A stretch of 64,000 bases of DNA from a virus. Positions 16,531-51,470 of this stretch are shown one piece after another (the stretch's first letter is position 1; each line of letters starts with the position of its first letter). The position numbers were made by a program, and so were the translations under genes. Where the stretch lies: the IMG/VR virus record IMGVR_UViG_3300045988_123958; one strand, 5' to 3'. The notes under the pieces are model-generated. The model saw only the letters and a list, made by a program, of their open reading frames with translations. It was not told the DNA's origin and searched no databases.

Positions 16531-16565
16531 TTGCAAAGTAAAAATTGGAGAGAAAGGAGATTTCT

Positions 16566-22500: not shown

Positions 22501-24785
22501 TTTATAAAGCTGCTGAAGCTCTTGGATATTTACAAGGTCAATTTGATCCAGTAATTAGCCAATTAGGAACTTATGAAAATTTCTATGGTTAGTTAAACAA
22601 TGCTTATTCTAATGGAGAAATTTCTCAAGAAAATTATATTGAAGGCTTACAAGATGTATATGATAATACATTAGATAATTTAAATGCTTTGTAGGATTTA
22701 GATAAAGAAATGCTTGAATATTATGGTAATACTATAGATTTAGCAAATGATGAATTATCTAAATATACAGATCATATGGAGCATTTAACTAGTGTATTGG
22801 ATCATTATCGTTCTATTATTACTTTGTTAGGTAAAGACAAAGATTATGATAAAGTTTTATCAGTTTTGAATGGAACTGCTTAGACTAAGAAAAATAATTT
22901 TGATACTTCTAAACAATGGTATGAAAGCTTGAAGCGTGAACGTGATGCAGCAGCCGCGGCCTTAGCCAATTCGACCGATGAGGCGGAACGTGAAGGACTT
23001 CAAAAGAATTATGATGCTATATTAGCTGCGTTCGATGAGGCGGAAGAAGATATGCTTTCTAAAGCTGAAGAATATGGTGAAGCATTAAAAGAAATTCTTA
23101 CTACAAAGATGGAACAAGCTGCGGATGAAATGAATAAGCAATTGAGCACTACTAAAGTAAGTATTAACGGTAATAACTTTAATATTTCTGGCTGGGATGC
23201 TTTAAATGACGCTTTGGATAGAATGTCTTCTTATCAAGATGAATATTTAACAAAAACTAATTAGATTTATGAAATGAATAAACTACTTAATAATGTTAAT
23301 TAGGCTATTAATAAGACAAATAATCAAGCAGCTAAAAATAGATATCAGCAATTTACTAAAGAAATTGAGTAGTTAAGAGATAAAGATAAATTAAGTCAAT
23401 TAGAATTAGAAATTGCTTAGGCTAAATATAAAGTGCTTGAAGCACAAATCGCGTTAGAGGAAGCTCAAAACGCAAAGTCTACAGTTAGACTGCAACGTGA
23501 TAATGAGGGTAATTTTGGTTATGTGTATACCGCAGACCAAGAGAAAGTAAATGACGCGCAATAGGCTTTGGCAGACGCGGAAAATGACTTATATAACATT
23601 CGTCTTGATGCGACAAATAAATATGGTCAACAAAAACTTCAATATGAAAAAGAGCTAGCTGAAAAGCTTGCGGAACTCGATTAGAAAGCCGCGGAAGATG
23701 CTGTTTATCGTGAGACCACATATCAGCAAGAACGCGCATTAGTAATTCAACAATATACTGATTTAATTACTACTGCTGGAAACCTTTATGCGAAAGCACA
23801 AGAAGAGGATAACCGAGTAGTTCAAGATGCTTGGGTAAATTCTTTTGATATTATCAAAGATAATAGTAATAGTTGGAAAGATACTATTACTGAAAACACT
23901 AATATTATCAATGATACATTTAAAGAATGGCAAGGCAGTATGGATGAAATTAGTAAAATTGTTGGTGATGATTTAAAAGATACTCAATAGAAAGTTAAAG
24001 ACGTTACTGATGAAAGTAATAAACTTTATCAAGAAGTATCTAATAGAGTTATTCCTGCTCTTGAAAGTGAGTTGAGTTCCGTCCGTAGCGCCACTGAAGC
24101 TTGGGCACAACATCGTCAGCAATTACTTGATACTATTAGAGCTTATGAAGAGCTTTTAGATGCTATCCAAGCGACATTACGTGCTTAGAGTGGATTTGGT
24201 AGTGGAAGTAGCTCTGGTAATGATAGTGATTGGTCTAAAGATATGGGTAATGTAACATATGGGTCTGATGATTATTATAAATATATGTAGAATCGCGAAG
24301 ATAAAATTAATGGTGGATATGATGTTGGAGCTGCTACTAATGCTCGTGTTGATGCTTTCTATCGTAAAGGATTAACACTTCCAATTACTCGTAATGGATA
24401 GACTTATCGTTATTTTACTGACATTCCTGATAGTGTTTGGAAACAATTGGTTGGATTTAGAAGTGGTGGCTATACCGGCACTTGGAATGATGATGGCAAG
24501 TTAGCATTCTTACATTAGAAAGAATTAGTTCTTAATGCTGATGACACGGAAAATATGTTAGCTTCTATTCAATTAGTTAGATAGATCGCGAAACAATTAG
24601 ATTTCAATAGTCAACAAATTTCTACTCTTTCATCTTCTGGATTTACTGTTAGTTCTCAAGATGGAACATTAGAATAGAATGTTAGAATTGAAGCTAGCTT
24701 CCCGAACGCAACTGATAGATATGAAATTCAAGAAGCATTTAATACATTAGTTAATGTAGCTTCTCAATATGCCAATAGAAAATAA
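16566..24785 (+). CDS. tail tape measure protein (2,739 codons)
   Basis: ATG at 16566 is in frame 0. Track ORFs 19989, 20985, 21237, 22410 and 22929 are all in frame 0 and are separated only by TAG. Hand reading found dozens of in-frame TAG and no TAA or TGA before 24783. Contains a TMP-like segment (TEYTDAALIYYQQGLDD). Confidence 0.75.
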
Positions 24786-33740: not shown

Positions 33741-34085
33741 ATGGCAAGAAAGATAAGACAAATTCGTTATTATGGTGAAGGTCTTAATTCTAAGAACTAT
33801 CCAAGTGATGTTAATATGAGTAAATTAATTACAGGAACCGCATTTAAAAATAATAATCAAAATGTATTAATTACTCAATTAGGCATTTAGACTTTGCCAG
33901 GAACGAAATTTTATTTAAATGATAGCACTAATGCTATTATTGTTGGAAATACTGGTATTTATGAATTAGATTTAGAAGGTATTTCTACTATTAATTTGAT
34001 TAAATTTGATAGAAGCTCTATGAATTTGATTAATCAAAATCAAGAAGCATATCTTATTATAGATTATTTATTTGAGGAGGGTTGA
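33741..34085 (+). CDS. hypothetical baseplate protein
   Basis: ATG in the same frame as track ORF 33894..34085, with 1 TAG. About 114 codons. Confidence 0.4.
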
Positions 34086-36358
34086 TAATGGGTTTTTATG
34101 GTAATATAACTAATACTTCAAAAACAACCTTTACTTTTGATAAAATTTATAGCAATAGACTTCAAATGGATAATAGTTGTACGAGTGATGGTATATTTTT
34201 AGGACGCTATGTTTTAGTTGAATATGGCCTTCCTGCTACTCAATATTTAGTAGGATATCTTGATAATAAAATTATGTATGATGATCCTTCTGATAGAAGT
34301 GATTCTCATATTATTTTATGTGAGAATGGAAAATTAGTAAAAGTTAAAAGAAGCAACCAATGGTATTTATATGTGGGAAATGTAACCGCGAGCGGGACTA
34401 AAGAGTGGAAATATCTCACTAGAATTACTAATGATAGAGTCGATGATGAATAGTATAATTTAAATTATCAAATAGATTATCCTGTTTATGGTCGCGGCTA
34501 TGATTCTACAGTTTGGATAAAACAATACATCAATAATCAAGAGACTTATGTTTAGATTGCTGAATTAAATACTGTTGTTCCTAATTTTTCAATTTACCCA
34601 CTACTTCCTCAAGATCCCTATGTTGCGGTTGATAATGCTAGTATTGTATACCAACCAGGTAAGTATTATTATTATGATGAAACTGATAGTCATTATAAAT
34701 TAGATAATAATGATACTAAAACTGAGGGGCGCGTTTATTATTTAGAAAGTGAGCTTGGACCTGCGATAACCACAGATCAAAGTAGCACGAATTTACTTTA
34801 TAAATTAAGAGTTCCTACTAATTTCCAGCTTGATTTAGACGATAATAATATTTATTATAATAAAGAAGGATTTAGTAAAACAAAACGTTCTTACGATAAT
34901 ACTACAAAAAATAGTATTAATTATAAATTAAGTTAGTCAGGATATAGATTTTATTATAATGTAGAATAGGATAATGTTGTTGGTGAGCCGATCGAAGACG
35001 GCTACGACCGCAAATCTCTTGTTGTAAAGCTTCCTGCTCTTGGTAATGCAGTATGTGATACCTATGACTTGCTTTACGGTCAAAATCGCGATGATTCTAC
35101 TACTAATTTTGATAAAACTAATATTAAAGGTGCTTTGAATACCCTTAATAGAAAAATGAGTTTAGATAAATTAGATACTAATAAACTTATTTATTTTTCT
35201 ACTGAAACTGATAATGATATTAATGATAATTATATGAAATCTGCGACTATCGAAGGAGATAATTTGATTTCAGTAGATGCGAACATTGAGAAGAATAGCG
35301 GAGTTATTAAAATTACTCATAATAATTTAGATGTAAGTAAAGCATCAAAAAGCTATGGCAAAGATGTTGATTTTGGTACTTTTGGTTCTTCTATTACTTT
35401 ACCTAAATTATTTACTGATAGAGCGGGACATATTGTAAAAGAAGAAACATTTTCAGTTAGTATTCCAAAAGGCTCTTATACTAATACTAAAGAAGGTAAT
35501 GTTTTTACTTCTTTAAATTTTACTGATACTACTGGAGCTTTAAGTAGTGAGAAATCTTATTTAGGAACTTTAGCATTAGGCAAAGGGTATATTATTAACA
35601 ATAAATTAAATACTATTACTAAAGATACAACTCTTAATGATAGTATTAGTAAATTAATTGATAATAGTGATAGTAAATATAATACTCTATTAGGTCAATC
35701 TAACAATAGTTTTGGTAAAGATACTATCCCGACTCTTTATGGATTAAGATAGGGAATTAATGCTGATAGAGATAGTATTAGCAATTTAAGTGATAAAATT
35801 GATGTATTAAATGGAACTGTATCTACGACTAATTCTGTTGCTTATAGTATTAAATAGGCTATTGATAAATTAGATAAAACTGATAATAAAGTAGATAAAC
35901 AATTTGTTACGGCAGTAGAAGAAAAAGATGGTTTAATAACTGTTTCAAGAAGTGCTTTACAAGAAAGTGATTTACCTATTACTTTTGATGGAACTTATAG
36001 CAATAGTAATAAAGTAGCTACTATGAGTAGTTTAAATACTTTAAAAACTAATCTTTTAGGTGGCTATACTGGCACATTAGCTGATATAAATACTTTAGCA
36101 AGTGGCAAATTAAATGAAAGCGCAGTGCGTGGTCTTACATATAATGCGACTTCTGGAGATAATGGAGCTAAAACAGTAGTAGGAATGTTTGATTTAATTG
36201 TAGTTTTACAAACTAAAAACGCGGAATTGAATAAAACTATTAAAGCATTATAGGATAAAGATACAGAATTAAATGATTTAATTACTGGATTAAGAACTGA
36301 TGTTGATGCTTTAAAGAAAAATTCAAACAATACTGATACTCCATCTGAAACAACTTAA
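34082..36358 (+). CDS. tail fiber-like protein with C-terminal coiled coil (about 758 codons)
   Basis: Track ORFs 34082, 35069 and 36023 share a frame and are joined by TAG. Ends at TAA just before a terminator. Confidence 0.5.
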
Positions 36359-36446: not shown

Positions 36447-37028
36447 TTGCCTAATACATTAAATAAATATGTAAAATTTGTTAGAGGTTCTAAAACTGCT
36501 TTTGAAAGTTTAGGAACCAAAAGAGACAATGATACTTTATATTTTATTTATGGGGAAAATGATTCTTCTGGAGAACTTTATTTAGGTAGTCGTTTAATTT
36601 GCGGTGGAATTAGTTCCGGGGGTAAGTTAAGCGATTTAAGTGATATTGTTCTCAATGAAGTTAAAACAAATCAAGTTTTAATTTATAATGAAGAACAAAA
36701 AAAATGGGTTAATTAGGGCTTAGAAAATAATGAAACTTTAATTAATTCTATTGTTGAAAAATTATCTACGGAAGAAAATTTAGCTAAGTTAGCTCCTGTT
36801 TTTAAGGGTACAGTTCCAGGCTTAGTTCCAGTTTCTTTGCATGAAACTAAAGGAAAACATATTCTTACTGATGCTGGTACATGGATTGATATGCCAGTAG
36901 GAACATTAACTTAGGGAGATATTGAAACAATTAATATAGCTAATAAATATTTAGTAGATAAGGGTCCTGATAATTTGGTAACTCGTGTTGAAGCGGTTGA
37001 ACAAACTGTTTCTTGGGCTGATATTTAA
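36447..37028 (+). CDS. fiber N-terminal anchor-domain protein (short paralog)
   Basis: Track ORF 36447..36716 extends through 2 TAG to 193 codons. Its N-terminus is paralogous to those of the genes at 37043, 38809 and 49240. Confidence 0.5.
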
Positions 37029-37042
37029 AGGAGTGAAAAAAA

Positions 37043-38689
37043 TTGAACGTTAAGTTTTTAAAAGGCTCTCAAGCCGAATTTGAAAAGGTGGCAGGTAGAT
37101 ATAAACCTGGTGCGTTTTATTTAGTAATTAATGATAATAAGTCCGCAAAAGACTATAAAAAACCAAGCCGTCTTTATTATGGTGTAGATGAAAATAATTG
37201 CGTTCCTGTAAATCAAGGTATTAATGTAGTTGATACTATCGCAGGTTTACCTCAAAGTTTTAGTCAAAATACTGCTGGCGAATTTTATTATGTAAAAGAT
37301 AAAAATATCTTATGTATTAATAATGGTAAAGGTTGGATTCAAACTAACACTGATACTGTTTTAGATACTAGTAAAAAAAATAGTAATGTATCAGTAAATA
37401 GTAATCCTGAAAAACCTAATGGAGTTTCTATAACTAATACTATTGCTGATAGTAGTGGTAATATTATTACTGAGACTTATGATATTATTGGTAGCGATTA
37501 TATTCAAGTGGAAGCAATTCCTGCTGTTGATGATAAAGGTGTAGACACTGTTAAACTGAGTTTAAAAGGAATTAATTATCAATTAAGCTCTTCTTTAAGT
37601 GATAAAACTTTAAATGTTAATTTAAAAAATGCTGATACTGATGCGGGTAATTTTAATATTATCGCTGGCAGTAATGTTAATATTGCTGAAAACCCCGCTG
37701 GTAGTTATACTTTAAGTGTTGATAAAGCAGTTAATGATATCAACGTAATTAACCACGCTAATGGTACTGGTTTTACTGCTTCTATTAGCGGTCCTGGTGT
37801 TGAAGGAGCTGGTAATAGTACAACTTTATCTGCTGATATTGATCCAGAAATTGCTTTAGAAGGCAAGGATGGCAGTTATAAATTTAAAGATGGTGTTTTA
37901 ACTCTTCCTGTTTATAGTAAACAAGATATTGATAATCAGCTTAGAACTATTAACGCTATGATATTCCGTGGCGGATTCTAGGTTAAAGATGGAGCCATTA
38001 TTTATGATAGCGCTGATATTACTGAAATTGCTGAAGGTAATACCTTTATTTATACTGGCGCTGAAGACACTCTTTGGAACGGTCATTACTTACGTCCTGG
38101 AGATTTAATTATCGCTTCTGGCAAAGAAGTTGATGGTGTTATTACTGGTACTATTAGTTGGACTTATGTTCCTTCTGCTGATGATCCTGTTACTGAGGTC
38201 GAAGGAGCTGATGATAACAGTAATGCTGGATTTATTATTAAGCTTGGTCCTACTAAAGAACTTTTAAATTATGTCCTTAAAGGTGAAGAAGGTATTGAGT
38301 TAGAAGTAAAGGCTCAAACTGGTTCAGTAGTGAAAGAAATTACTATTAAACACAGTAATACTTTAACTGTGAATACTCCAGTCTCTCAAAATTATGCCGA
38401 TGAGTAGACTATTGTTATTAATGAACCAACTGAAATTGATGCTCAAGGCCATGTAATTAAATCTACTAAAAAAACATTTACTGTAAAGAATACTCACCAA
38501 GAAATTGCCAACGCAGATTATACAGTAAATGGTACTGATACTTTAATTCCTAATCTTAAAGTTGCTGGTGCTGATCTTGAAGGTAAACCACTTGTTTTCA
38601 CTAGTAATAGCTTAAAAGTTAATGTTTCTGCGGCAACTAAGACTGATGATGCTAAAGTTAATTTTGAGTTAGAGTGGGGAACATTCTAA
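37043..38689 (+). CDS. tail fiber protein (about 548 codons)
   Basis: TTG start; track ORF 37043..37981 extends through TAG. Shares the N-terminal anchor domain with the other fiber genes. Confidence 0.55.
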
Positions 38690-38750
38690 GGGCAATACTA
38701 TTTAATAATAAATATAATTTTTTCTATTTTATATAGAAGAATGTTTTTAT

Positions 38751-38788
38751 GGGGAAAGATGAAATATTCTTTCCCCATATTTTTTTTT
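38751..38788 (+). terminator. rho-independent terminator
   Basis: GGGGAAAG...CTTTCCCC hairpin followed by a T9 run. Confidence 0.7.
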
Positions 38789-38808
38789 AGGATAGAAAGG
38801 AGTAAATT

Positions 38809-41800
38809 ATGTCTAAGATACGTTTTCGTCCTGTATAGGGCCCAGAAGAAAAAATAAAAGAATATCCTCAAAGCGATGGATATTTTTATGTGGCAACAGA
38901 TACAGGCCGAGTTTATTTAGATACGGCAACTGAAAATAAAATGCCAATAGGGTCTAGTGGTGTTCAGGTAATTTACGGTACAGATAATACTGTGGAAATT
39001 GAATATGATGCGGATGAAAACCCAGTGGCTTATTTAATTCTTTTATCAAAATTATCTATAACAAATTGTCATATAGATGATTTAATTTTAAATTTAGACG
39101 GATGTTTTTATCGAATTTTAGGTTTTGCTTTAAATGAAAACCGCGAAGAATGTGCGAGATGTGAAAAATTAACTGTCGCTGGGGCAGGCGGTGGCGGAGA
39201 AGGAGACTCTGAACAAAAAGTTTTAGGAACTGTTTCTTTAACAAGAATTCCATCTGACAGCCCTGTTGATATCTTAAATGAAGAAAATGTTAAAGTAAAA
39301 GTTTTGGTTAAATGTAGAACTGTTGGTGGCGTTCCGCAATCTTCTTCTGTGCAAGGAATTATAACTATAAGCGAAATTAAAAGTGCTACAGAAAAAGAAA
39401 TTTATTATACTTCTCCTCCTACTACTTATGAGCACAATATTCCGCAAGAAATTGATTTAACTAATATTTTAAGAAATTCATGTTCTAGTGAAATTAATTT
39501 TAGTATTTATTATAATCCTGATAAAGAAAATAATAGATTTTAGAAAAGCTCTGATACTATTAATATTAATAAACATCATCTTTCTTTTAGTTGGAAAGAA
39601 AGTAGTTTTAGTAATGATAGTCCAGTTGATAATGGACAAATATCTGTTAGCTGGTTAATGTCTGAAGATATTGCTAGATCTGTTGAAGTTTATTTTGATG
39701 ATTATTTAGTTTTAGATAGAGCTTATAGTGATACTGATTCTTCTTCTGAAGATTCTTTTGTTATTACTCCTGATACAAATATATTAGGGGTTGACAAAGT
39801 TTCTACTTTAAAAAATTATTTTACTCATGGTGAGCATATAATAAAAGCAAAGTTGTATTTAATGAATAATTCTAAAAAAGGCGCGGGAACAGATTTTATT
39901 CAAAAGGAAATTGTTATTCAAGAATCAGGTAATAAAATGCCTTTAATTTGGGTACAAGATTTTAAGACAGAATATTATACTTATGAGACAATAAGAATTC
40001 CTTTTAAAGTATTAGATCCAAATAATAATGGAGCTTTTATAACTCTTTATAAGAATGGCGTTCAAGTAGGAACTAGAGAATTAGATAGTTCACAAGTTAG
40101 AGAATGGCAATATTGGGAAATTACTAATTTAACTGTAGATGATAGTTCTTATTATACTATTAAAGTTGGTACTGATCCTTATTCTTATTCTCGTAATTTT
40201 AATTTTACAATTTTAATTGATCCTTTAAGAGATATGAAATTAGCAAAAAAAGATAATTTAAAAGTTAATTTTATAGCTACTGGTCGTTCTAATTCAGAGG
40301 GAAAATTAGGCCGTGAAACTTATTTAATTAATAATAATAAATACGTAGAATTTAAAAATTTTAATTGGTATAATAATGGCTGGATTTTCGATGAAAATAA
40401 TACAACTTGTTTACGAGTAAGTAATGGTGCAGAAGTATCTATTCCAGTTGGGAAAATGGCTTTTAAAGATGGGTCATCATCTGCTACTATTGAGGTTCAA
40501 TTTAAAATAAAAAATCCTCAAAATTATGCTAAAGTTATAACTAAATATACTAGATATAAAGTAAGTAAAGATAATTGGGAAGACGATGATGCTTGGGATA
40601 AATTTAAAGCTCAAAATAAATATCTTAATTATGATGAGTTTTTAACTAAAAAATATTTACCGACAACCAATTATAGTTATGATGATTTAGAATATAATAA
40701 AATAGAACAAGATTTTAATTTAAAGAATTTAGTTTGTGCGTATGGTAAATTAGGAAGCTCTGTATCTCCTGGTATTTATTTTAGTCCATAGGATGCTGTA
40801 TTTACAGCTAATGGTGCTCAAGAAACAGTTTCAGTTGATTTTATTGAAAATGAAATGCTAAATCTTTCATTTGTTTATACTAAAAAGAAAAGTGATATAG
40901 AAGGCGGAAATTCTAAATTATTAGAAATTTTTATGAATGGCGTTTTAACTAGTGTTGTACGTTGTAGTAGTGATGTTTGGAATATTGATTCTGATTTCAT
41001 TAAATTTATGTCTAATACTTGTGATATTGATATTTATAGTATTAGAGTTTATGATACAGATTTAACCATTCCTGAAATAGTCCAAAATTACGCTTTTGAT
41101 AAGAGAAGTATAAAACAGTGGGACCAAAAAGATCTTTATGAAAACAATACGGTATTAAAAGATGATGTATTTTCTTATACTAAAATGAAAAAGTATAATG
41201 ATAATCATCCGACTGAACCTTTAATGCCCTATATTATTTTAAGGACTACTAAAAATAATAAAAATAATACGGATAATAGATTACCTTATTCTAAAGCAAA
41301 AGAAAGCTAGGAAGGAACTTTAGAATTTGTTAACACTGCTTTAGACGCTGCTTACAACAGTGGTGAATTAGAAAAAGTTGCTATAAAAGAAGGATGGAAA
41401 CCTGTAATTGAAAAAAATGAAGAAACATAGGAAGAAGTAGTAAAATATACTGCGGTATAGAATTATTATATGCATCATTGTCCTAGTTTTATAACTGTTC
41501 TTAATGGATGTACTTTCCAAGTTCAAGGTACTTCTTCACAATTTTATCCTCGTCGTAATTATAAAGCTAAATGCAAAGAATCAATGCTTTTAAATAGAGG
41601 CCCATTTGCTGAAGACTATAAAAAAGCAGGAGACTAGTATAATGAAGATATAACTAAACATCCTTGTTATTTAGAATGGTTTTATATGGATAATAAGACA
41701 GTCGGTACTACTAAATTTACTTTAAAAATAGATTTTATGGAATCTTCTGGAGATTATAATAGAGGATTTGCTAATTTAGTTAACGAGATTTATTCTAAAC

Positions 41801-44800
41801 ATCCAGTAGAAGACTATAAAGATTCTTTTGATAATTATAATTTATATGGAAATTTAGAAGATTATCGCACTTCGGTAAAAGGATTCCCCGTCTTAGCTTT
41901 CCACTATATGTCCAACGATGATAATACTTACTCTAAGGAAAATAGTAATAACTGTATTTTTATTGGCAAATATAATATGTTATTAGATAAAGGATCAGAT
42001 GAATGTTTTGGATTTAAACCAGATAAAAAGATTTTACAAAATCAAATTACGGGCAATCCTAAAGTAAGAGATATGGCAGAATGTTGGGAATTTTAGAACA
42101 ATTCAAGAACTTTCTGTTCTTTCCGTGATCCTTGGAATCGTTATAAATTATCATTTAGAAATCCTAATATGGTAATACCTCCAGACGGAGATAATCCTGA
42201 ATTAGTTAAAGGCGCTCCAAAAGTCGTTGATTCTTTTGAGCCAAGATATAATCCAAATGATGATTTAATTGCTAAATAGTTATTTAGTTTAAAAGACTGG
42301 CTTGATCCAGATGGAACATAGACTGAGGCTACTGGAAAAGAATTAAAAAATGTAGCTCCTGATAGACTTACTAAAAAAGAAGTAGTAGATGAGCTTACTG
42401 GAATAAAATCTACTAAATGGATTATAAAAAATCCCGATGGAGAAGAGATAGAATTTAATGTTAAAGATGATACAAGCAAACAAGAATTACTTTTAGCTTT
42501 AATGTCTAACTGGGAAGATGCAGTTAGTTGGGTTTGGAGTACTTGCTTAGATTGCGATATTGAATTTGATGATGGATAGAAATTAAAAATTCCATCTATG
42601 GGCGTTTATACTAAAGTTGATGGATTAGCTGAAGCCATATATGTTCCTAATGTCTATTATGTTGAAAATGGAGTTAATGAAAATGGAAAAATTATTTATA
42701 AATTAGCTTCTGAAGAATATAACTCTGAAACAAGATATTATAAGTAGATTAATGAAAATAATAGTTTAAAGTATGTAAGCATAAAACTTACAAATAATTC
42801 AGATAAAGTATATAAAGCAAATATTTATTATCTTTTAACTGATAGTAAAAATGAAATTTATGTATTAAGTTCTGATAAATTTAATTCTTCTTTAGATTAT
42901 TATTCTTTTAATAAAAATGAAGAAGGTATTGAGGAAAGATGGAAATTACCTAACCCAGTAACCTATGGCTCTATTACTTATACTAAAGATAGTAAAGAAT
43001 ACCGTCAAGCTAAATTTAAAAATGAATTAAGTAATTTCTTTGATATTGAATATTTAGCTTCTTACCTTTTAATGACAGAAATTTTTGAATGTTATGATTC
43101 TCGTGGAAAAAATGCAATGTTTGCTTCTTGGGGGCCTCAAAAAGGCAATGTTCAAAAATCTACTGGCAAACAACATTATGTTTGGTATCCTATCTTTTAT
43201 GATATTGATACTCAATTAGGTATTAATAATACTGGTATTCCATCTTTTGAATACTATATTGATGCTACTGAAGAAGGAAGTTTTTCAACTAACGATAGTG
43301 TTCTTTGGAATAATTTTTACACTTTCTTTAGAAGTAAGATGGTGGATAAGTATAAGCAATTAATGGGAACTCAAAATAATTCTTATAGTCCAAATGATTC
43401 AAGAGTAAATAAAATTTTTATTAAAGGCGCTGAGGCAGGGGCTAAAAAAAGTGATATTGTAGATAAATGGTATCGTACTGATCCTTCAGTATTCCCCGGT
43501 AGTTATGCGGCTTTAGGAGACCGACCAATTATTGCATTAAGTTTGGATGAAGAATTTAAATATATTATTCCAACAAATTCTAAAGCAGAAAATATGCCAG
43601 TATTTGGTCGTTTAAAGGATGATGGATCTTATGGCCGTGAAGATGATAAATATTTTTATGCTTTACAAGGAGATAGAAATCTTTATCGTGCGCAATTTTT
43701 AGCCAATCGTCTTAATTATATTGACTCTTGGTTAACTGTTGGTACTTATGCCAGAAATGGTGGAGGAAGCTATATTAGAAGTCGTATTTCCGCGAACAAT
43801 CCTAAGAATACATCAGATAAATGGATTGAAGGTACTAACACTCAAAACATGGAAGGATTAATTACAAATTCTCAGTATTGGAAAAATGGTACTGAATTCG
43901 AAGAAAAAAATCATATGTTTGATGGTGAGTATTGGATCAACATGGAACCCGCGCGTAATGCCTATGTTACTATTGGTACAGATGGAGAGAATTTTCCTTC
44001 AAAAAAATATAATGGTTTAGAACCGGTTAAATATGTAGCTCCTGATATTAAAAAAGGAATTATGAGTAGCGGAAATTATAAAGAACAATTATATTATATT
44101 TATGGAATGGATCAAATGAAATCTCTTGGTGATTTAAGTAAATTATATTTCCAAGAGTTTGCAGCTGAAGGAAAAATGGAGCGTTTAACTGATTTATTAT
44201 TAGGATATGATGGAAAAGATGAAAGCGGTAATGAATATTTTAATAATGATGTAAATGACTGGTCCTTCTCAAAAGGTGGAATGCCTTTACTTAAAGAAAT
44301 GAATCTTTGTAATATTAACTTTAAAAAAGACTAGGGGGCATTAGATTTAACTAAGAGTGAAAAACTTGAAAACTTTAGAAATACTAAATCTAATATCCCG
44401 AGAGTTAATTTTGCTCCTGGAGTAGCTTTAAATACTTTATATTTAACCAATCGAACAAATTATTTAAGTTTAATAGAAGCTAATTTATTAACGAAATTAA
44501 TAACTAACTATATATATCCTGAAAAAAATTCAATTACTGGAAAACTTGAGGTCTTAGATGAAAATCGTGGTTTATATATTCAAGGTCTTACTGATGCTGA
44601 AGAAGGAAAAGAAAAAACCGAGATAAGAACTTTTGATATTCGAGGCGGTAATTTAGGTTATAATAGTTATGAATTGTTACGCAAATATATTTCAGCTAGT
44701 AAAAATAGTAAATTAGATTTATCTAATTGTATTATTAATTTAAATAATGTTTAGTGGAGTCCATATAGACTTCTGACTGACACTAAAACAACTCTTGACC

Positions 44801-46553
44801 CAGAAAGAAAATCTTATTATAGAGATAATGGACATTTTTAGTTAACAGCTATTCCAAAAGATTAGGTTAATAAAATAACAAAATCTGATATTAAAAATAA
44901 TTAGATTTATTATTTAGATACAATAAATGGAGACAATAATAATCATAATATAATAACTGATTATAATTTATTAATTGATATTTATAATAATTATAGGGGT
45001 CTTAATACTAATAAACCAGAAATATCTGGTGTTATGTATATAAAAAATAATAATTAGATTGATGAATCTATTATCTAGAATGAGTTATAGGATAAATACC
45101 CTGATTTAATAATTTTTGTAGAAAATGTTAAACAAGAATGTTCTGCCAAGTTTATTTTAGAAAAAGAAGATATTGATGGAGTGTTAATTTAGGAGGTTCT
45201 AAAAACTTAGAAATTACCTTTATCTAGCAGTAAATTCTTTGATGATCCAACAAATTCTTCTAGCGAAACTTATATTTCTTTTGGTAGCTTACAAGAAAAA
45301 ATGCCAACTTATGATTTTAAAGGTTGGGAAGATGATACGGGAGAATTAGTAATTACTGTTGGAAAAAATGTAAATGAAGAAGATGTTGTTTTAAAAAGCG
45401 ATTGGAATTCTTTGTCTTTACAACCTAATAAAATGGATTATATTTTTAAAGCGAGATTTAAGCGTAAATCTTATACGATCACTTTCGTTAATGGTGACCG
45501 CGTTGTTAATGATTCAACTGTAAAGAAAGTATTTAATTATGGTGAAAGAATTACTGTTCCAGAAGAATTCTATTATTTTAATAATACAGAAGTATCTAAT
45601 TTACCAGAAGGCGAAGATCCATTAGAATGGACTTGGAAATAGGCTGGATGGGCGGATAAAGATGGAGTTAAAATTGATTTAACTAAACAATTAGCTTATT
45701 CCGACCGTGAATTCTATGCTGTTGGAGAGCCGATTAGTGTTTATGATAATATTTTAATTAATGATTCTGCTCATAAATATTATGATATTATAAACTCTGA
45801 TGGAGAATTATCATTTGCAATGACTGACTTAGCTAAGAATTTAAAAGGCAAAATTACTTTACCTACAACTTATAATGGTTAGCCAATTACAAGAATTAAA
45901 TATAGTCAAGTTAACCCATCAGCAGCAGTTGGTATTCAAGTAAATCCTAATATCACTGCGATATTTTTTGCTCCAAAAGATAGCAATAAAATTTCTGTAA
46001 TAGATGATTATGCTTTTATTTTAGATAGTGGGTTAGAATATTTCCAATTTAGTGATTGTTTAAAGAAAATTGGTACTAAAGCATTTTATCAATGTCCTTT
46101 AAGTCGTAATAACATAATTCCTTATTCTTCTTCTACTGAAGGTTTGACTTTTGGAGCTCAAGCATTTTATCAAAGTAAGATGGGTTCTTATTCTCCTTAT
46201 AATTTAATTATAGAGGGATGCAAAGACGGTATTCTTAATTTTGATATAAATGCGTTCTCTGGTTAGACAATTTTAAATATGTCTGGTAATTAGTTTAAGG
46301 GTTATACTGGTGCTATTCAAGTATAGATTGGCACTAATAAACATCCAATTAAATAGATTACGGCAGATAGTTCTGGTAATATTTTTACCCCTCGTCAAAC
46401 AGGTATGCCTACTGTCGCTAATGGATATACAGGTCGTTTTAGATATTATTATGTTGCTAGTTATGGTGAAAGTGTTAAGAATACTTTACATAGAATTTAT
46501 GAAGCAATGATATCTAATAGAGCAAACTTTGAAGAAGAACCTATTGTAAAGTG
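38809..46553 (+). CDS. giant tail fiber / receptor-binding protein (about 2,581 codons) with Listeria-Bacteroides-type repeat and BspA-type LRR C-terminal region
   Basis: ATG at 38809 is in the same frame (pos mod 3 = 1) as track ORFs 38890, 39658, 40855, 41686, 43072 and 45301. Hand reading of the gaps shows only TAG, no TAA or TGA, up to a TGA near 46551. The C-terminal region contains GYxFxGW-like repeats (YDFKGWED) and an LRR-like stretch (ISVIDDYAFILDSGLEYFQFSDCLKKIGTKAFYQC). Confidence 0.55.
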
Positions 46554-46563
46554 AGGATAAAAT

Positions 46564-46764
46564 ATGGAAAAAGAAATTGTTTATAGATATATGGGTTCTA
46601 ATGGCATTATTGAATCTTCTATATAGTTAGCAGGAGTGCCTGCGACTAAATTATATAGATTAATTGCGGATTATAATAAAAAATTAACGAGAGATGGAAA
46701 AGAATTCTTTTCCATCTCTCCCTTAGTTCCCGAGGATGAATTAGAAGAATGGTATGAGGTTTAA
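46564..46764 (+). CDS. small protein, possible fiber assembly chaperone
   Basis: About 66 codons with 1 TAG, immediately after the giant fiber gene and before a terminator. Confidence 0.3.
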
Positions 46765-46798
46765 ATAGGCCAGAATACATTGATTTAAATATAAAAAA

Positions 46799-46843
46799 AA
46801 TTAGGTTAAATAGGAAAAGAAACTATTTAACCTAATTTTTTTA
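46799..46843 (+). terminator. rho-independent terminator
   Basis: AATTAGGTTAAATAG...CTATTTAACCTAATT hairpin followed by TTTTTT. Confidence 0.65.
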
Positions 46844-46860
46844 GAAAGGAAGAGATAGAT

Positions 46861-48539
46861 TTGATAGTTAAAAATGATAGCGTTATCGAACAAGCTAAGT
46901 GGGAAGAACTTCAAAAGAAAATCAATACTTTAGCCAAAGATAATAAAATAAAAAATGTTAATGGAAAAATCGTTGAAATAAAATCTATTGAAGACTATTA
47001 TAGTAACATCACTGGTATCGTTCAAATGAAGAAGTTAGATCCATCTGTTCTTCGCATACCTTTAGATGAGCCTATTATAAATATAAATGCTGATACTCGT
47101 CAAATTGAATTAACTAAAGAGTTCGGAAAAACTCAATTGCTTACTGTTGAAAATGATCATTTAGCAGAAACAATTTATTTTCAAATTGATAGATATTTTG
47201 ATTTACAAGATTTAGCAGCTGATGATATTAAAATTTATATTTAGTATTATTTAAACGATCAAATTCAAGGTTATTCTGAAGCTATTTGCCCCGATATTGG
47301 TACTGCTGGAAAATTAATTTTTGGTTGGCAAATTAGTGATGAAGTAACTAGTGAATCTGGTACTTTATAGTTTTCTATTATTTTCTTTAAAAAGAATCCA
47401 AAAGATAATAATAATTTAATGTATGTGTTTAATACATTACCTGCGCAAATGGTTATCAATAAAACTTTAGACATTGATGAAGATTTAGTTACTGCGCAAC
47501 CTGTTGATTATTTAACTGGGTATTTAGAAAGTTTAATCGATTCAAAGAAATCCGCCGGTTTTGGAGTTCCTGATAATGTGGCTTTCTTGACAAGCATTTT
47601 GAATAACAAATCAGTTTATTTAACTGGTGATAAATTATATGCTTTAGCTTATAATGATACTTTAAATAATCCAGATAATACTACTATTGAGTATAAATGG
47701 ATTTGTAATTATAGAGGAACTAATACTGAATTAAAAAATGGTATTGGTTATGAATACAAAAAAATTGTTGATGATAATAGTATCTTTAGTGGAGATATGG
47801 CTTATAATGAAAAATTGACCTATTTTACTAAAAATGGAGACTCTTATATTAATAGTAGCAGTGATATTAATCTTGAGAACTATACTGCTAAGAAAAACGA
47901 TCTCTACCTAAAAGTTCAATACTGCGAAGTTGATGGATGTGGAAGTTATAGCGTTACCGCATTTGGTACAACTGCCAATCAAGTGAGTAAAGAAGTTAAA
48001 TGGGCTGGATTAGCTATTTCTGTTGAAGGAATTAGTGAAGATTTTAGAATTGTTCTTGATCCTTCCCCTGATAATGGATGTTATTATGGTTCTTCTAATA
48101 CTATTACTGCTGTTGGATAGAATGATGAAGGCGTTCAGTGTACTTATCTTTGGAAAAAGAATGGCTCTGATTTTAGCACTGAAAAAACTGTAACTTTAAC
48201 TAAAGAGGATAATTATACTTTATCAGTTCATGGTTATAAAAATAAAGATAATATAGATTATCCTACAATTAGTTTTACTAATTATTTTGACCCAACTAAT
48301 TTAGTTCCTGTTATTAAAGAAGTTTCAATTGAAAATGGAAAATATATTGTTAAACTCGAAAATACTAGTGAGTTAGGCAATGGTATTTATGAATATCAAT
48401 GGAAAAATGCGAATGGTCTTACTCAAAAAACAACTTCTGAAAATTCAACAGAAGTAGATGAAAATATTACTCAAGTAGCTGTAATTATCTAGAAAGGTGA
48501 AAGAAAATCAAAACCAGGAACCTTTAAGATTGAGGGGTA
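46861..48539 (+). CDS. tail/baseplate-associated protein with C-terminal Ig-like or carbohydrate-binding-like region (about 559 codons)
   Basis: Track ORFs 46861..47244 and 47419..48120 share a frame and are joined by TAG. N-terminal region is paralogous to the gene at 48546. Confidence 0.5.
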
Positions 48540-48545
48540 AGATAA

Positions 48546-49166
48546 ATGATAACTAATCCAACTGATTATTATAGTGTTTTACATCAAATACAAGATGAAA
48601 ACTTTCCAGTTAAGTATCCTGCTCTTCCAGCCCCAGAAGATGAAAAGTTAGTTTAGATAGATTTAAACTCAAGAACTATTAGTAATGAAAATAGTTATAT
48701 TACAGTTGAAGGCGATCACGCTGCTGAAATTATTTATTTTGAAATAGATAGATATTTTGATACTATGGATTTAACTAATATGATGTGTATTATTTAGTAT
48801 ATTAATGCTGATAATGAAAAACGCATTTATCCCGTTCCATATTATGATACTTTAACTCACAAAGATAAAATTATTTTTCCTTGGGTTTTAAATTATAGTG
48901 CTACTAAAAAATCTGGTACTTTAAATTATATGATAACTTTTTATAAAATAGAAAAAGATTCTAATAATTTACTATATAATTTAAATACATTACCAGCAAG
49001 TCTTTAGGTTTATTCTAAACTTAATTTAGATTCTATCGTAAAAGAAGAAGATTATTATGTAATTGATGATAGCCAAGTAGTACAACAAATTTGGGAACGC
49101 TTAGCACGTTTAGAAGGATTTGTTGGCGGTAATGGGTTGGATGTTTATTGGATTGTTCTCGAATAA
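48546..49166 (+). CDS. paralog of the N-terminal domain of the 46861 gene (about 206 codons)
   Basis: Shares the motifs E.DRYFD...D, FPW/FGW and TL.Y/F, then NTLPA with the 46861 gene. 3 TAG. Confidence 0.45.
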
Positions 49167-49239
49167 ATAAACTAAATGGTATAGAATTATTAATTTAATT
49201 CTATACCATTAATTTATAGAAAGGAGTTATTGAAGATCG

Positions 49240-50265
49240 ATGGCTCTATTTAAAATTTTAAAAGGTGATTCAGATAGATTAGTCACCTATGATGCGAAAG
49301 CGGTTAATGGAAAAATACCCTTTCCATCTTTAGATTCTGGAAAAACTTTATTTACAACAGTAGAAAGCACTCCTATTACAGAGGGCTATGCTTATTTTAC
49401 AGAAGATACTCATAAATTTTATATTGACACCGCGGACAAAAGATTAAATCTATATACCGATCATGCGGATTATGCTACCTATGATGAAAATGGTCGTAAT
49501 TTAGCAGAATTGTCAGAAGTATCTTATGAAAATATTGATGATAATGGAAGTAAAATTGGTGCGATAAATATCAATGGAATTGAGTATAATGTTACTTGTC
49601 CTGCGAATGTAGTAAGTAAACCTGTAAATAAATATGTGTTTACAGCAAAAGCAAATTAGAATACATTTACCATTCCTTTTGATTTTGATGATAGCAGTGC
49701 TTTAACTTTATATTATAATGGTATTATGTTAAAAGAAACAGATCATTATACTGTTAAAGGAAAAGTTATTACTTTAAATGGGTGGACTAGTGAAGCTGAT
49801 GATTATCTTACTGTAATGGGTATTGAGGGTGCGGCCGCGATTAATGTTGACGAAAAAGTGGCTTAGATTCAAGAAGCAGTAGATAACGCCGAAGTGACTA
49901 TTAATAATAAAGTTACTGATGCTATTAAATCTATTGATGATAAACTAGCAACCGTTCCTGATGATGTAACACAAGCAGTTTATAAAAATAAATCCAACAT
50001 AATGACCGCGGATGGTAGAATTACTATGGATAATAATTATGTTCCTACTGCTGATATGGAATTAGCTACTAAAAAATACGTTGATAATGCCACTCCTCCT
50101 ACAGTTGGAACTACCACTGATTATTCTATTTATATTGGATCTACTAAACCTGCTTCTGGAACTGCTCCTTTAGTGTGGATAGATACAACTGCTAAAACTG
50201 GCACTTTTAAATATAGAACTTCTACCACAGGTACTTGGACACCTGTCCCCGTGGCTTGGATTTGA
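49240..50265 (+). CDS. tail fiber-like protein (about 341 codons) with the shared N-terminal anchor domain
   Basis: Track ORFs 49240..49659 and 49894..50265 share a frame and are joined by 2 TAG. Confidence 0.5.
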
Positions 50266-50299: not shown

Positions 50300-50707
50300 A
50301 TGGATCAAAATTTAATTAATCAATTGTTTCAAGTGTGTTTGATTCCTATGCTTGGTGCTTTAACCACTTTTATAGTTATTTGGATTAAAGCAAAAAGTGC
50401 AGAATTACAAAAGAAAACTAATAATGATATTTTAAATAAATATGTGCAAATGGCTACTGACACAATTACTAATTGTGTTATTGCCACCAATCAAACTTAT
50501 GTAAATTCTCTTAAAGAACAAGGTAAGTTTGATGAAGCTGCTCAAAAAGAAGCATTTTAGAGAACTTATCAAGCAGTATTGCTTATTTTAAGTGATGATG
50601 CTAAAGAGTATTTGAATAATGCTTTTGGTGATTTAAATAAATATTTACAAGAGAAGATTGAGTCTACAGTAAATAATTATCGTACTCCAAGTAATGATTT
50701 AAAGTAA
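50300..50707 (+). CDS. putative holin
   Basis: Track ORF 50300..50560 extended through 1 TAG to about 135 codons. Single N-terminal transmembrane helix (LIPMLGALTTFIVIWI) followed by a charged C-terminal tail. Confidence 0.45.
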
Positions 50708-50713
50708 TAAAAA

Positions 50714-50755
50714 TAAGGGAGACATTCTTAATTGAATGTCTCCCTTATTTTTTTT
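50714..50755. terminator. bidirectional rho-independent terminator
   Basis: AAGGGAGACATTC...GAATGTCTCCCTT hairpin flanked by A- and T-runs, between convergent genes. Confidence 0.7.
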
Positions 50756-51470
50756 ATCTGAATGGATTTTTCCATCGTCGATTAATTTCTTCATAGCCTT
50801 TTTTAGGAAAGTATAAAACTTCACCATTTTTGAAAGTTAAATTGTCTTTATTCATTATTTTAATTTGATTTAAAGTAATAATTAAACTTGGTGGGATAAA
50901 GACAAAATCTGGATGATAAACTAAAGTTCCTATATAATTTTCAAAAGAAGTTTTTAGAGTTTTACTATTTAGAACCTCATTTTCTAAATGATAACACAAA
51001 TTTCGTTTTTGGATATCAGCATATAATACTTTACCCAAATCAATTTTTACTTCTCCATTAGGAGTGTCTAAATATTTATATTCACGTCTTTTTTCTTCTC
51101 TAACTTCATGTAAAATAGAAAAAATTTTTTCTTTATTAGCAGGTTTTTTGACGAAGTTAAATGCCTTTACTTCATAAGAAGCTACTCCATAATTTATTTG
51201 AGAGGAAACAAAAATTATTTTTCCAATATACCCATTTGTTCTTAAGAGATGAGCTATTTCAATACCATCCATTTTTTTGAATGTAATCCCTAAAAAGATT
51301 GCATCATAATCAATATTAGAATCAATTAATTTTCCAGGATCAGTAAATTTATATACATATCCCGGCAAATTAAATTCTTTAAAATACTGATTTATTATTT
51401 CTTCCAATGAGTCATTTTGCTAATCACTATTGTCGCAAACACCTACGATAAAAATTTTAATCACCTTCAT
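50754..51470 (-). CDS. LytTR-family response regulator with atypical receiver (Gly at phospho-acceptor position)
   Basis: Track ORF 50754..51407 extends 5' through one in-frame TAG to an ATG at 51468-70, giving MKVIKIFIVGVCDNSDQQND... (about 238 codons). The receiver domain keeps the acidic pair, the Ser/Thr and the Lys, but has FLGI where FLDI is expected. C-terminal LytTR DNA-binding domain. Confidence 0.65.

What the first reader, a model, noticed from the sequence alone, without database searches (positions are those of the whole stretch)
36447..50265. Cassette of at least four paralogous fiber genes sharing one N-terminal anchor domain
The genes at 36447, 37043, 38809 and 49240 all begin with the same motif type: M..k(F/I)(v/l)kG......L....ddtLYFi / fYyvtDt..lYl. 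They then diverge completely. One is only 193 codons (anchor domain alone), one is 548, one is 341 and one is a 2,581-codon giant. This pattern fits modular receptor-binding proteins that dock onto a common baseplate site. It suggests multivalent or switchable host recognition. The 46861/48546 pair is a second paralog family interleaved with the fibers.
Basis: seen in the sequence. Interest (0 to 1): 0.6.

Follow-up and report, generated by a model that had tools for sequence, protein, structure and literature searches.

The report
Phage tail-fibre genes sharing an N-terminal module
Four neighbouring late genes of an uncultured gut phage that reads TAG as glutamine really do share a short N-terminal module typical of phage tail fibres, which makes this an ordinary modular host-recognition gene block and not a switchable cassette.

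Summary

- **Genetic code.** The four ORFs exist only if TAG is read as a sense codon. Every internal stop is TAG, 28 of them in the giant gene. TAG aligns mostly with CAA/CAG in relatives, so it most likely encodes Gln.
- **N-terminal similarity.** It is real but graded. Direct pairwise alignment supports only 36447~37043 and 38809~49240 (z 7.8 and 6.5; 0 of 1000 shuffles). Profile-profile comparison links them as a chain A-B-C-D (probabilities 92, 90 and 88%). A-C and A-D are not significant.
- **The module.** It covers about 35-50 residues and is predicted, at low confidence, as strand-helix-strand-strand. The 36447 version falls just under the Pfam PF24243 "Phage tail tip domain" cut-off, while many homologues pass it.
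- **Conservation.** The gene order is kept in 18 close relatives and one distant relative. A second distant relative, held only as far as the giant, keeps the first three genes. Each gene keeps its own N-terminal subtype, and the N-terminus is the best-conserved part.
- **Variation.** The distal and central parts vary by recombination.
- **No switching machinery.** The window has no inverted repeats and no diversity-generating retroelement (DGR)-like repeats.
- **Other corrections.** The 193-codon gene is not "anchor alone". The 46861/48546 pair are true paralogs (E 1.5e-15).

Verdict: a modular tail-fibre and adhesin block of a large siphovirus-like phage, and a new member of a known kind. 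Attachment by the module is inferred, not shown.

The parts
36447..37028 (+). Gene A, 193 aa (TTG start, 2 in-frame TAG): a mini-fibre or adaptor protein. It has three parts: the N-terminal module, one LsDLxDV..KWxN repeat, and a GLVPxx...DxGxW fibre-type motif.
36468..36602 (+). N-terminal module of A (aa 8-52, YVKFVRGSKTAFESL..DTLYFIY..GELYLGSRL). It scores just under the PF24243 cut-off.
   Evidence: Pfam 20.1-23.0 bits against a 23.7 cut-off. Homologues hit PF24243 in 14 of 32 cases, best E 1.2e-10. Predicted as strand-helix-strand-strand at low confidence.
36618..36716 (+). Single copy of a widespread repeat of about 35 aa (KLSDLSDIVLNEVKTNQVLIYNEEQKKWVN).
   Evidence: Profile positions 55-93 match 1-15 times per protein in all 149 top representatives checked.
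37043..38689 (+). Gene B, 548 aa (TTG start, 2 TAG). The N-terminal module is aa 2-55 (nt 37046-37207): VKFLKGSQAEFEKV..GAFYLVIND..SRLYYG.
38748..38779 (+). Terminator-like hairpin with a T-run between gene B and the giant gene.
38809..46554 (+). Gene C, a giant 2581-aa protein with 28 in-frame TAG. The N-terminal module is aa 4-47 (nt 38818-38949): IRFRPVQG..DGYFYVATDTGRVYLD. The central part (aa about 100-2100) is dimorphic among close relatives. A weak BspA-type LRR_5 hit lies at aa 2393-2454 (nt 45985-46170).
46794..46842 (.). Perfect 20-nt-stem hairpin in the 306-nt gap after the giant gene.
   Evidence: I12
46861..48540 (+). 559-aa protein, paralog 1 of the second family. It shares a domain of about 140 aa at aa 64-206 and has weak Ig/PKD-like hits at aa 419-467. 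It has no N-terminal module of the A-D type.
48546..49166 (+). 206-aa protein, paralog 2 of the second family (aa 27-162).
49240..50265 (+). Gene D, 341 aa (2 TAG). The N-terminal module is aa 2-72 (nt 49243-49455), split by an insertion of about 30 aa. aa 130-341 (nt 49627-50262) is an exchangeable beta-sandwich, coiled-coil and C-terminal knob module.
50300..50707 (+). Holin (phrog_13712, E 6e-38). It marks the end of the structural block. A bidirectional terminator hairpin follows at 50709-50752.
34082..36358 (+). Upstream 758-aa protein with a coiled-coil C-terminus. It is conserved at the same position in relatives, where it is 1544 aa in the distant one. It is a possible partner or docking protein. 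This is inference only.

Best explanation
The region 36.4-50.3 kb is the distal adsorption block of a large (about 160-197 kb), low-GC, TAG-to-Gln recoded, siphovirus-like phage from gut metagenomes. It encodes four ancient paralogous fibre or adhesin proteins, each beginning with a module of about 35-50 residues. The consensus is h-x-F-x-[KR]-G-x(3)-h-x(2)-h ... G-x-h-Y-h-x-x-D-[TD]-x-x-h-Y-h-[GD].

The module is the part tied to the phage backbone. I infer that it fixes each protein to its own site on the tail tip, or on a neighbouring fibre protein. The remainder carries the binding functions and is exchanged by recombination:
- a BspA-type LRR region in the 2581-aa giant;
- an Ig-like beta-sandwich, coiled coil and C-terminal knob in the 341-aa protein.

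The result would be a fixed, multivalent host-recognition apparatus, not a switch.

Shown: the recoding, the homology chain, the conserved synteny, the better conservation of the N-termini, the modular exchange, and the absence of switching repeats.

Inferred: virion location, trimeric state, attachment through the module, and receptor binding.
For: Recoding. All internal stops are TAG. Where relatives carry a different codon opposite a TAG, it is CAA or CAG in 354 of the 533 cases among the eight commonest aligned amino acids.

Context. Terminase, virion structural and tail proteins lie upstream and the holin lies directly downstream. The closest cultured TerL relatives are large Firmicutes siphoviruses at 46-47% identity.

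Homology of the module.

Family A module. It sits just under the PF24243 'Phage tail tip domain' cut-off. In a scan of 1.84 billion proteins its profile found 4602 clusters. Of the top 149, 54 carry the module, 53 of those at the N-terminus, on proteins of 116-527 aa (the one internal case is 684 aa).

Modular exchange:
- 49240 aa 130-341 is shared at 55-66% identity with proteins whose N-termini are Mtd_N (PF18454) or another type.
- The D ortholog in distant relative L021 keeps the N-terminus but is 1023 aa.
- N-terminal modules are 44-70% identical between distant orthologs, against 25-34% for the remainders.

Fibre nature of D. The AlphaFold model has a confident beta-sandwich (aa 131-195) and a long helix (aa 204-238). 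Foldseek matches T7 gp17 N-terminal, CBA120 TSP4 N-terminal and other podophage fibre chains. It also matches 194 viral tail-fibre, tailspike or depolymerase models at E<=1e-3.

Population mosaicism. Flanking genes are mostly 94-100% identical (g34082 87-99%). The giant gene has two alleles of about 96% and about 69% identity, with its last 400 aa or so at 89-99%. Gene 49240 has 323, 341 and 376-aa variants that differ in the middle.
Against: - There is no direct evidence that any of the four proteins is in the virion or that the module contacts the baseplate.
- A-C and A-D are not significant on their own, so the four-way link is transitive.
- Pfam detects only family A, and that below its cut-off. 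Families B, C and D hit nothing.
- The AlphaFold model of the A-type protein is poor (pLDDT 44.6), and the N-terminus of the D model is only pLDDT 46-68. A common fold is therefore not shown.
- The Foldseek matches probably involve the internal beta-sandwich of D rather than the N-terminal module. That sandwich resembles the tail-attachment domain of T7-type fibres, so the true docking element of D could be the sandwich.
- No solved structure contains the motif by sequence.
Confidence: 0.65

Rival explanations
1. The shared N-terminal motif is a generic fibre-start or trimerisation nucleus, a folding element found at the start of many fibre proteins. It is not a docking adaptor. Attachment would be made by other parts, for example the beta-sandwich at aa 131-195 of the 341-aa protein, or by partner proteins such as the 758-aa upstream protein or the 46861/48546 pair.
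For: - The module is very short, and similar layouts (Mtd_N-type) head many unrelated fibres.
- Foldseek hits of the D model are to the tail-attachment domains of T7-type fibres and CBA120 TSP4, and most plausibly correspond to the internal sandwich.
- Every D homologue keeps that sandwich whatever its N-terminus.
Against: - The N-terminal module is the segment that co-varies with the phage backbone, while the sandwich-to-knob part moves between backbones. An attachment element is expected to behave the first way.
- Each paralog's N-terminus is conserved in a subtype-specific way across distant relatives. A generic folding nucleus would not need that.
Confidence: 0.22
2. Not all four are receptor-binding fibres. 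The 193-aa protein is a connector or assembly factor, and the 2581-aa giant is a non-tail adhesin, for example a decoration or mucus-binding protein with BspA-like and Ig-like domains. Both would simply have inherited the same N-terminal element.
For: - The 193-aa protein has only short shaft-type motifs and no distal domain.
- The giant's only family signals are a weak BspA LRR_5 hit and two function-unknown PHROGs.
- The giant's most conserved part between alleles is the C-terminus, not the pattern expected for a receptor-binding tip under diversifying selection.
Against: - Both sit inside the tail-to-lysis late block and are conserved there in distant relatives.
- Family A homologues reach 527 aa with the same N-terminus.
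- The giant shows the allelic dimorphism typical of host-interaction genes.
Confidence: 0.1
3. The N-terminal resemblance is chance or compositional in an AT-rich genome, and the genes are unrelated.
For: Four of the six direct pairwise comparisons are not significant. Two of the six profile pairs are not significant.
Against: - Composition-preserving shuffles gave 0 of 1000 for two pairs.
- hhalign P values are 1e-7 to 5e-5 for four pairs, in consistent register.
- Leave-one-out HMMs find the omitted protein at its N-terminus at rank 1-2 of about 125 ORFs.
- Compact intermediates in relatives, such as L021 D (MALFKISKGNSVDLAKQSLNEGYAWFTPDDGKFYID), bridge the subtypes.
Confidence: 0.03

Closest known systems
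Pfam PF24243 (Phage_tail_C, 'Phage tail tip domain', 26-residue model)
   Same: It covers aa 10-35 of the 36447 protein (KFVRGSKTAFESLGTKRDNDTLYFIY). Homologues with the same N-terminus hit it at E values down to 1.2e-10.
   Different: The window protein scores 20.1-23.0 bits, under the 23.7 cut-off. The other three genes do not hit it at all. In 53 of 54 representatives the module is N-terminal, despite the '_C' in the family name.
Mtd_N (PF18454), the N-terminal domain of the Bordetella phage BPP-1 major tropism determinant and of many fibre or hyaluronidase-type proteins
   Same: It is a short N-terminal element with the same order of features, from an aromatic-x-[KR]-G start to a G-x-h-h-h-x-D-x-x-x-h-x-h-G end. 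It heads a second set of 4-5 paralogous fibre genes elsewhere in the same phage genomes. One of those shares the 49240 C-terminal module.
   Different: No Pfam hit for any of the four window proteins. The best profile-profile value is only P=0.0019, 14% probability. No DGR components are seen in the window.
Multi-RBP phages with conserved N-terminal anchor or adaptor domains: the Klebsiella anchor-branch systems (PMC6872550), Ackermannviridae TSP1-4 (PMC11414711) and the T7 gp17 N-terminal domain
   Same: The same design logic applies. Several receptor-binding proteins per virion have conserved N-terminal attachment parts and exchangeable distal parts. The D model's beta-sandwich matches T7 gp17-N and CBA120 TSP4-N structures.
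   Different: The module here is much shorter (35-50 aa) and unrelated in sequence. The phage is siphovirus-like and infers a Firmicutes-type host. No T4 gp10-like branching domain was identified by sequence. Attachment is untested.
TAG-recoded gut phages (code 15), e.g. phAss-1 (PMC10607447), crAss-like phages (PMC9523058), and the survey in bioRxiv 10.1101/2021.08.26.457843
   Same: In-frame TAG is concentrated in late structural and lysis genes. TAG aligns with Gln codons. TerL is 45% identical to Phass-1.
   Different: The genome is larger (160-197 kb against 136 kb) and only distantly related. No suppressor tRNA lies in this 64-kb window.

Membership tests
PF24243 Phage_tail_C | Score at or above the Pfam gathering cut-off (23.7 bits) | tested here: not met
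   Protein 36447 scores 20.1, 22.4 and 23.0 bits depending on the fragment given. Proteins 37043, 38809 and 49240 give no hit at E<=10. Homologues of 36447 hit it in 14 of 32 cases, best E 1.2e-10. Gene A is therefore a borderline member by homology, and B-D are not members by this test.
PF18454 Mtd_N | HMM match to the Mtd N-terminal domain | tested here: not met
   No hit for any of the 17 A-D N-termini scanned. The single positive control (P0109) hit at E 6e-7. hhalign B-type against Mtd_N-type gave P=0.0019, 14%, which is a suggestive layout only.
Modular phage receptor-binding proteins with an N-terminal anchor | The N-terminus is conserved with the phage backbone while the distal part is exchanged between backbones | tested here: met
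Modular phage receptor-binding proteins with an N-terminal anchor | Genes located in the tail module of the late region | tested here: met
   Tail and structural PHROG hits lie upstream and the holin downstream. All genes are on one strand and rich in TAG.
Modular phage receptor-binding proteins with an N-terminal anchor | Physical attachment of the N-terminal domain to the baseplate, tail or another RBP | not testable with these tools
   This needs cryo-EM, pull-downs or genetics.
Modular phage receptor-binding proteins with an N-terminal anchor | Fibre or spike-like (trimeric, elongated) structure | tested here: inconclusive
   The D-type model (mean pLDDT 63) has a beta-sandwich and a 35-residue helix, and matches fibre and tailspike structures. 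The A-type model is unusable (pLDDT 44.6).
Invertible-segment or shufflon host-range switches (Mu G segment type) | Inverted repeats flanking alternative C-terminal exons, plus an invertase | tested here: not met
   No inverted repeat of at least 45 nt anywhere in the window. Only low-identity AT-rich matches and local hairpins occur in 33.5-51.8 kb. A recombinase gene was not searched for.
Diversity-generating retroelement targets (Mtd-type) | A template and variable repeat pair of about 100-150 nt, plus a reverse transcriptase | tested here: not met
   The only direct repeats of at least 45 nt in the window are a 62-nt paralog match and two chance-level 45-nt matches. A reverse transcriptase was not searched for. 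The rest of the genome was not examined.

The most novel reading that the evidence does not exclude
This phage lineage may carry two orthogonal adaptor systems. One is the four-gene set in the window (KFxxG...YFxxDT...LY type). The other is a second cluster about 80 kb away with 4-5 genes headed by classical Mtd_N-type N-termini. The same receptor-binding module (49240 aa 130-341) is present once behind each adaptor type in one genome. If the two adaptor types dock at different virion sites, the phage would display up to about nine fibre species. It could also move a binding module between sites by recombination, which would be an unusually elaborate adsorption apparatus for a siphovirus-like phage.
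Probability: 0.2. Interest if true: 0.55.

Novelty: new member of a known kind. Interest (0 to 1): 0.3.

Why it matters
The result gives a usable annotation for about 14 kb that standard-code gene callers break into fragments.

It defines a short N-terminal signature that marks fibre and adhesin genes in an abundant but uncultured group of TAG-recoded gut phages. Three of its four subtypes are invisible to Pfam.

It shows where host-range variation sits in this lineage: the centre of the giant gene and the middle of the 341-aa gene.

For phage engineering or host prediction, the module boundaries are the natural swap points. These lie at about aa 50 in A-C and about aa 130 in D.

It does not reveal a new mechanism.

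Tried and rejected
- Megablast of 30-52 kb against 50,697 phage records found nothing.
- tblastn of the 193-aa protein against phage records found nothing. P0253, a representative with the same N-terminal module, gave only internal matches (aa 200-341) to an unannotated record and a hypothetical protein of Faecalibacterium phage FP_Brigit. No annotated cultured-phage homologue of the N-terminal module was found.
- PDB sequence searches with the 341-aa protein, the giant, the N-terminal profile and the 46861/48546 domain profile gave nothing meaningful.
- NCBIfam gave only noise.
P0001 (94% identical, 155 aa) and P0012 (93% identical) were used instead.
- The A-type model was too poor for a fold search.
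- A family-A-only HMM retrieved only the 37043 protein, at E 0.028. Broader profiles were needed.
- A literature search for PF24243 found no paper.
- Shufflon and DGR readings were rejected for lack of repeats.
- I considered that 46861/48546 might be BppU_N-like baseplate proteins. This rests on memory of the sequence pattern only. Pfam and PDB profile searches did not support it, so I make no claim.
- Host inference from genome contigs gave only a phage contig binned as a 'Mollicutes' MAG and short 'Clostridium sp.' MAG contigs. This is a hint, not evidence.

Full report
**1. What is in the sequence**

With the standard bacterial code the region is a series of short ORFs. The true ends are TAA or TGA.

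Reading TAG as sense gives a clean, same-strand gene series across 42-54636 with up to 77 in-frame TAGs per gene. The window contains no tRNA.

Where relatives carry a different codon opposite a TAG, it is CAA or CAG in 354 of the 533 cases among the eight commonest aligned amino acids. TAG therefore most likely encodes Gln (code 15). These counts are not independent, because the relatives are related to each other.

The four genes are:

| Gene | Coordinates | Length |
|---|---|---|
| A | 36447-37028 | 193 aa |
| B | 37043-38689 | 548 aa |
| C | 38809-46554 | 2581 aa |
| D | 49240-50265 | 341 aa |

All have AAAGGAG-type ribosome-binding sites. Between C and D lie 46861-48540 (559 aa) and 48546-49166 (206 aa). 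A holin follows at 50300 (phrog_13712, E 6e-38).

Upstream are a large terminase, virion structural proteins, a 2746-aa ORF and tail proteins. The closest cultured TerL relatives are large Firmicutes siphoviruses: Enterococcus VRE9_4, H1 and EF1 at 47%, Geobacillus E3 at 46%, and the TAG-recoded gut phage Phass-1 at 45% (PMC10607447).

**2. Is the N-terminal similarity real?**

- **Pairwise alignment.** Smith-Waterman on the first 90 residues with 1000 shuffles supports A~B (z 7.8) and C~D (z 6.5), each 0 of 1000. The four cross pairs are at background.
- **Family alignments.** I built N-terminal alignments for each gene from homologues: for A, 32-33 for B, 30 for D, and loci L001, L012-L021 for C.
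- **Profile-profile comparison.** hhalign gave A-B 92-95% (P 6e-7 to 5e-8), B-C 86-90% (P 2-5e-6), C-D 88% (P 3e-6) and B-D 67% (P 5e-5). A-C and A-D stayed at background.
- **A bridging sequence.** The C-D and B-D links became clear only after a distant relative (L021) supplied a compact D N-terminus, MALFKISKGNSVDLAKQSLNEGYAWFTPDDGKFYID. It lacks the roughly 30-aa insertion of the window's D.
- **Leave-one-family-out HMMs.** Searched against all 128 window ORFs, these recovered the omitted protein at its N-terminus. It was the top non-training hit for A (E 0.0085), B (E 2.7e-4) and D (E 0.21, not significant) and second for C (E 0.041).

The motif is real. It forms two subtypes joined transitively, and its layout is strand (hxFxxG), short helix, strand (GxhYhxxD), strand (xxhYhG/D). 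This layout comes from low-confidence models and the multiple alignment.

**3. What the module is**

Only A touches a known family, PF24243 'Phage tail tip domain'. It scores 20-23 bits against a 23.7 cut-off. Proteins with the same N-terminus hit it at E values down to 1.2e-10.

An exhaustive profile search of 1.84 billion representative proteins with the first 95 residues of family A found 4602 clusters at E<=1e-3. Among the best 149:

- 54 carry the module;
- 53 of those carry it at the very N-terminus, on proteins of 116-527 aa (the one internal case is 684 aa);
- all 149 contain the second half of the profile (LsDLxDVxI..dGQxLxYdxxxxKWxN) as a repeat present 1-15 times.

Gene A is thus module + one repeat + a GLVPxx...DxGxW motif shared with its family. 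It is not 'anchor alone'.

B, C and D hit no Pfam family at their N-termini. No solved structure contains the motif by sequence. The resemblance to Mtd_N (PF18454) is one of layout only (P 0.0019).

**4. Evidence for modular fibres**

*(a) Exchange of the D distal module.* D's aa 130-341 recurs at 55-66% identity in hundreds of proteins whose N-termini are Mtd_N-type or a third type (..KINKVPS..Y...G.I..DQLYLV).

*(b) Structure of D.* The D-type model has a confident beta-sandwich (aa 131-195, pLDDT 76-89), a 35-residue helix and a C-terminal domain. Foldseek matches the N-terminal parts of T7 gp17, CBA120 TSP4 and other phage fibre chains in the PDB (E 3e-4 and weaker). It also matches 194 viral fibre, tailspike or depolymerase models. 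The tool does not say which residues align. The well-folded sandwich is the likely source.

*(c) Conserved synteny.* Eighteen close relatives (IMG/VR contigs of 68-197 kb) have exactly the same order, 193-548-2581-559-206-341-holin. Distant relative L021 keeps it too, as 272-555-2524-680-208-1023. L001/L002 show the first three genes, 288-571-2488, and end there.

*(d) N-termini are the best-conserved part.* Between window and L021 the N-terminal modules are 70, 45, 44 and 58% identical, against 25-34% for the remainders. Ortholog scores exceed paralog scores for A, C and D and are roughly tied for B.

*(e) Variation lies inside genes.* Among close relatives the flanking genes are mostly 94-100% identical (g34082 87-99%). 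The giant has two alleles: about 96%, and about 69% overall with 46-76% across aa 100-2100 but 89-99% in the last 400 aa or so. D has 323, 341 and 376-aa variants that differ mostly between aa 100-260, or at the C-terminus.

**5. What is not there**

There are no inverted repeats of at least 45 nt in the window. The only direct repeat of note is the 62-nt paralog match between 46861 and 48546.

There is no DNA-level repeat at the four 5' ends, so the similarity is ancient and is not maintained by recombination. Nothing supports switching by inversion or by a DGR.

Terminator-like hairpins split the block into units: after B (38748-38779), after C (46794-46842), after 48546 (49170-49215) and after the holin (50709-50752).

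**6. Mechanism, with confidence**

Most likely (0.65), the four proteins form a fixed multivalent adsorption apparatus. Each is held by its own version of the N-terminal module at its own site. The distal parts bind the host surface and are replaced by recombination.

The attachment step is inferred from which segment stays with the backbone. The main rival (0.22) is that the module is a generic fibre-start or trimerisation element and that docking is done elsewhere, for example by D's T7-gp17-N-like sandwich.

**7. Comparison and novelty**

The design matches known multi-RBP phages with conserved N-terminal anchors: the Klebsiella anchor-branch systems (PMC6872550), Ackermannviridae TSPs (PMC11414711) and T7 gp17. 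The module here is much shorter and unrelated in sequence to those.

The A subtype is already captured by Pfam. B-D are divergent, unannotated subtypes. This is a new member of a known kind.

The side observations are of moderate interest: a second, Mtd_N-headed fibre cluster in the same genomes, the dimorphic giant, and the widespread unannotated repeat.

Noticed in passing
whole window; e.g. 16545-24785 (2746-aa ORF, 77 in-frame TAG): The window uses TAG as a sense codon, most likely Gln. Where relatives carry a different codon opposite a TAG, it is CAA or CAG in 354 of the 533 cases among the eight commonest aligned amino acids. In-frame TAG is dense in the plus-strand late genes and sparse (0-3 per gene) in the minus-strand genes after 54.6 kb. 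No tRNA gene lies in the window.
   Followed up: partly
outside the window: L031 (IMGVR_UViG_3300045988_126226, 10270-31079), L025, L026, L030; also L023, L024: Genomes that carry a cassette mostly 96-99% identical to the window's also carry, about 80 kb away, a second cluster of 4-5 genes (420, 415, 447, 501 and 364 aa). Each starts with a classical Mtd_N (PF18454)-type N-terminus. The 364-aa one shares 58-60% identity with 49240 aa 130-340. Depending on the locus, neighbours include radical-SAM genes and CBM_4_9- and ALK_LTK_GRD-like proteins. There is no DNA match to the window.
   Followed up: partly
38809-46554, mainly about 39109-45108: The giant gene is dimorphic among otherwise near-identical phages. 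In the second allele, aa 100-2100 are only 46-76% identical, while the first 100 aa (80%) and the last 400 aa or so (89-99%, including the BspA-type LRR region) are kept.
   Followed up: partly
36618-36716 (aa 58-90 of the 193-aa protein): A repeat of about 35 residues (LsDLxDVxI..dGQxLxYdxxxxKWxN) is present once here. It occurs 1-15 times in the 149 representatives checked, which reach 4638 aa, and 4602 clusters matched the full 95-residue family-A profile. No Pfam family matched it.
   Followed up: partly
46861-48540 and 48546-49166: This paralog pair shares a domain of about 140 aa (DH.AE.IYF.IDRYFD..DL...G.L.F...Fyk). It is conserved at the same position between genes C and D in the distant relative L021 (680 and 208 aa). 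Its function is unknown, with no Pfam or PDB match.
   Followed up: partly
34082-36358: The upstream 758-aa protein with a coiled-coil C-terminus has a 1544-aa ortholog in distant relatives (L001). Only the first 40 aa or so are well conserved (55%). It may be another modular tail-tip protein.
   Followed up: no
50709-50752 and GC skew from about 50 kb: A 19-bp-stem bidirectional terminator separates the holin from a convergent minus-strand gene (50754-51470). GC skew falls to about zero at 50-56 kb and turns clearly negative from 56 kb. This marks the boundary of the late plus-strand block.
   Followed up: no
L046 (CAMELE010000001.1, 163,874 bp): A near-complete genome of this phage (D protein 91% identical) is deposited as a contig of an 'uncultured Mollicutes bacterium' MAG. 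This is probably a binning artefact of a low-GC, recoded phage, or possibly a host hint.
   Followed up: no
37043-38689, aa 78-92: Protein B contains a second internal copy of the strand-2/strand-3 pattern (AGEFYYVKDKNILCI) after a conserved VPVNQGI motif. This suggests the module's hairpin is duplicated.
   Followed up: no
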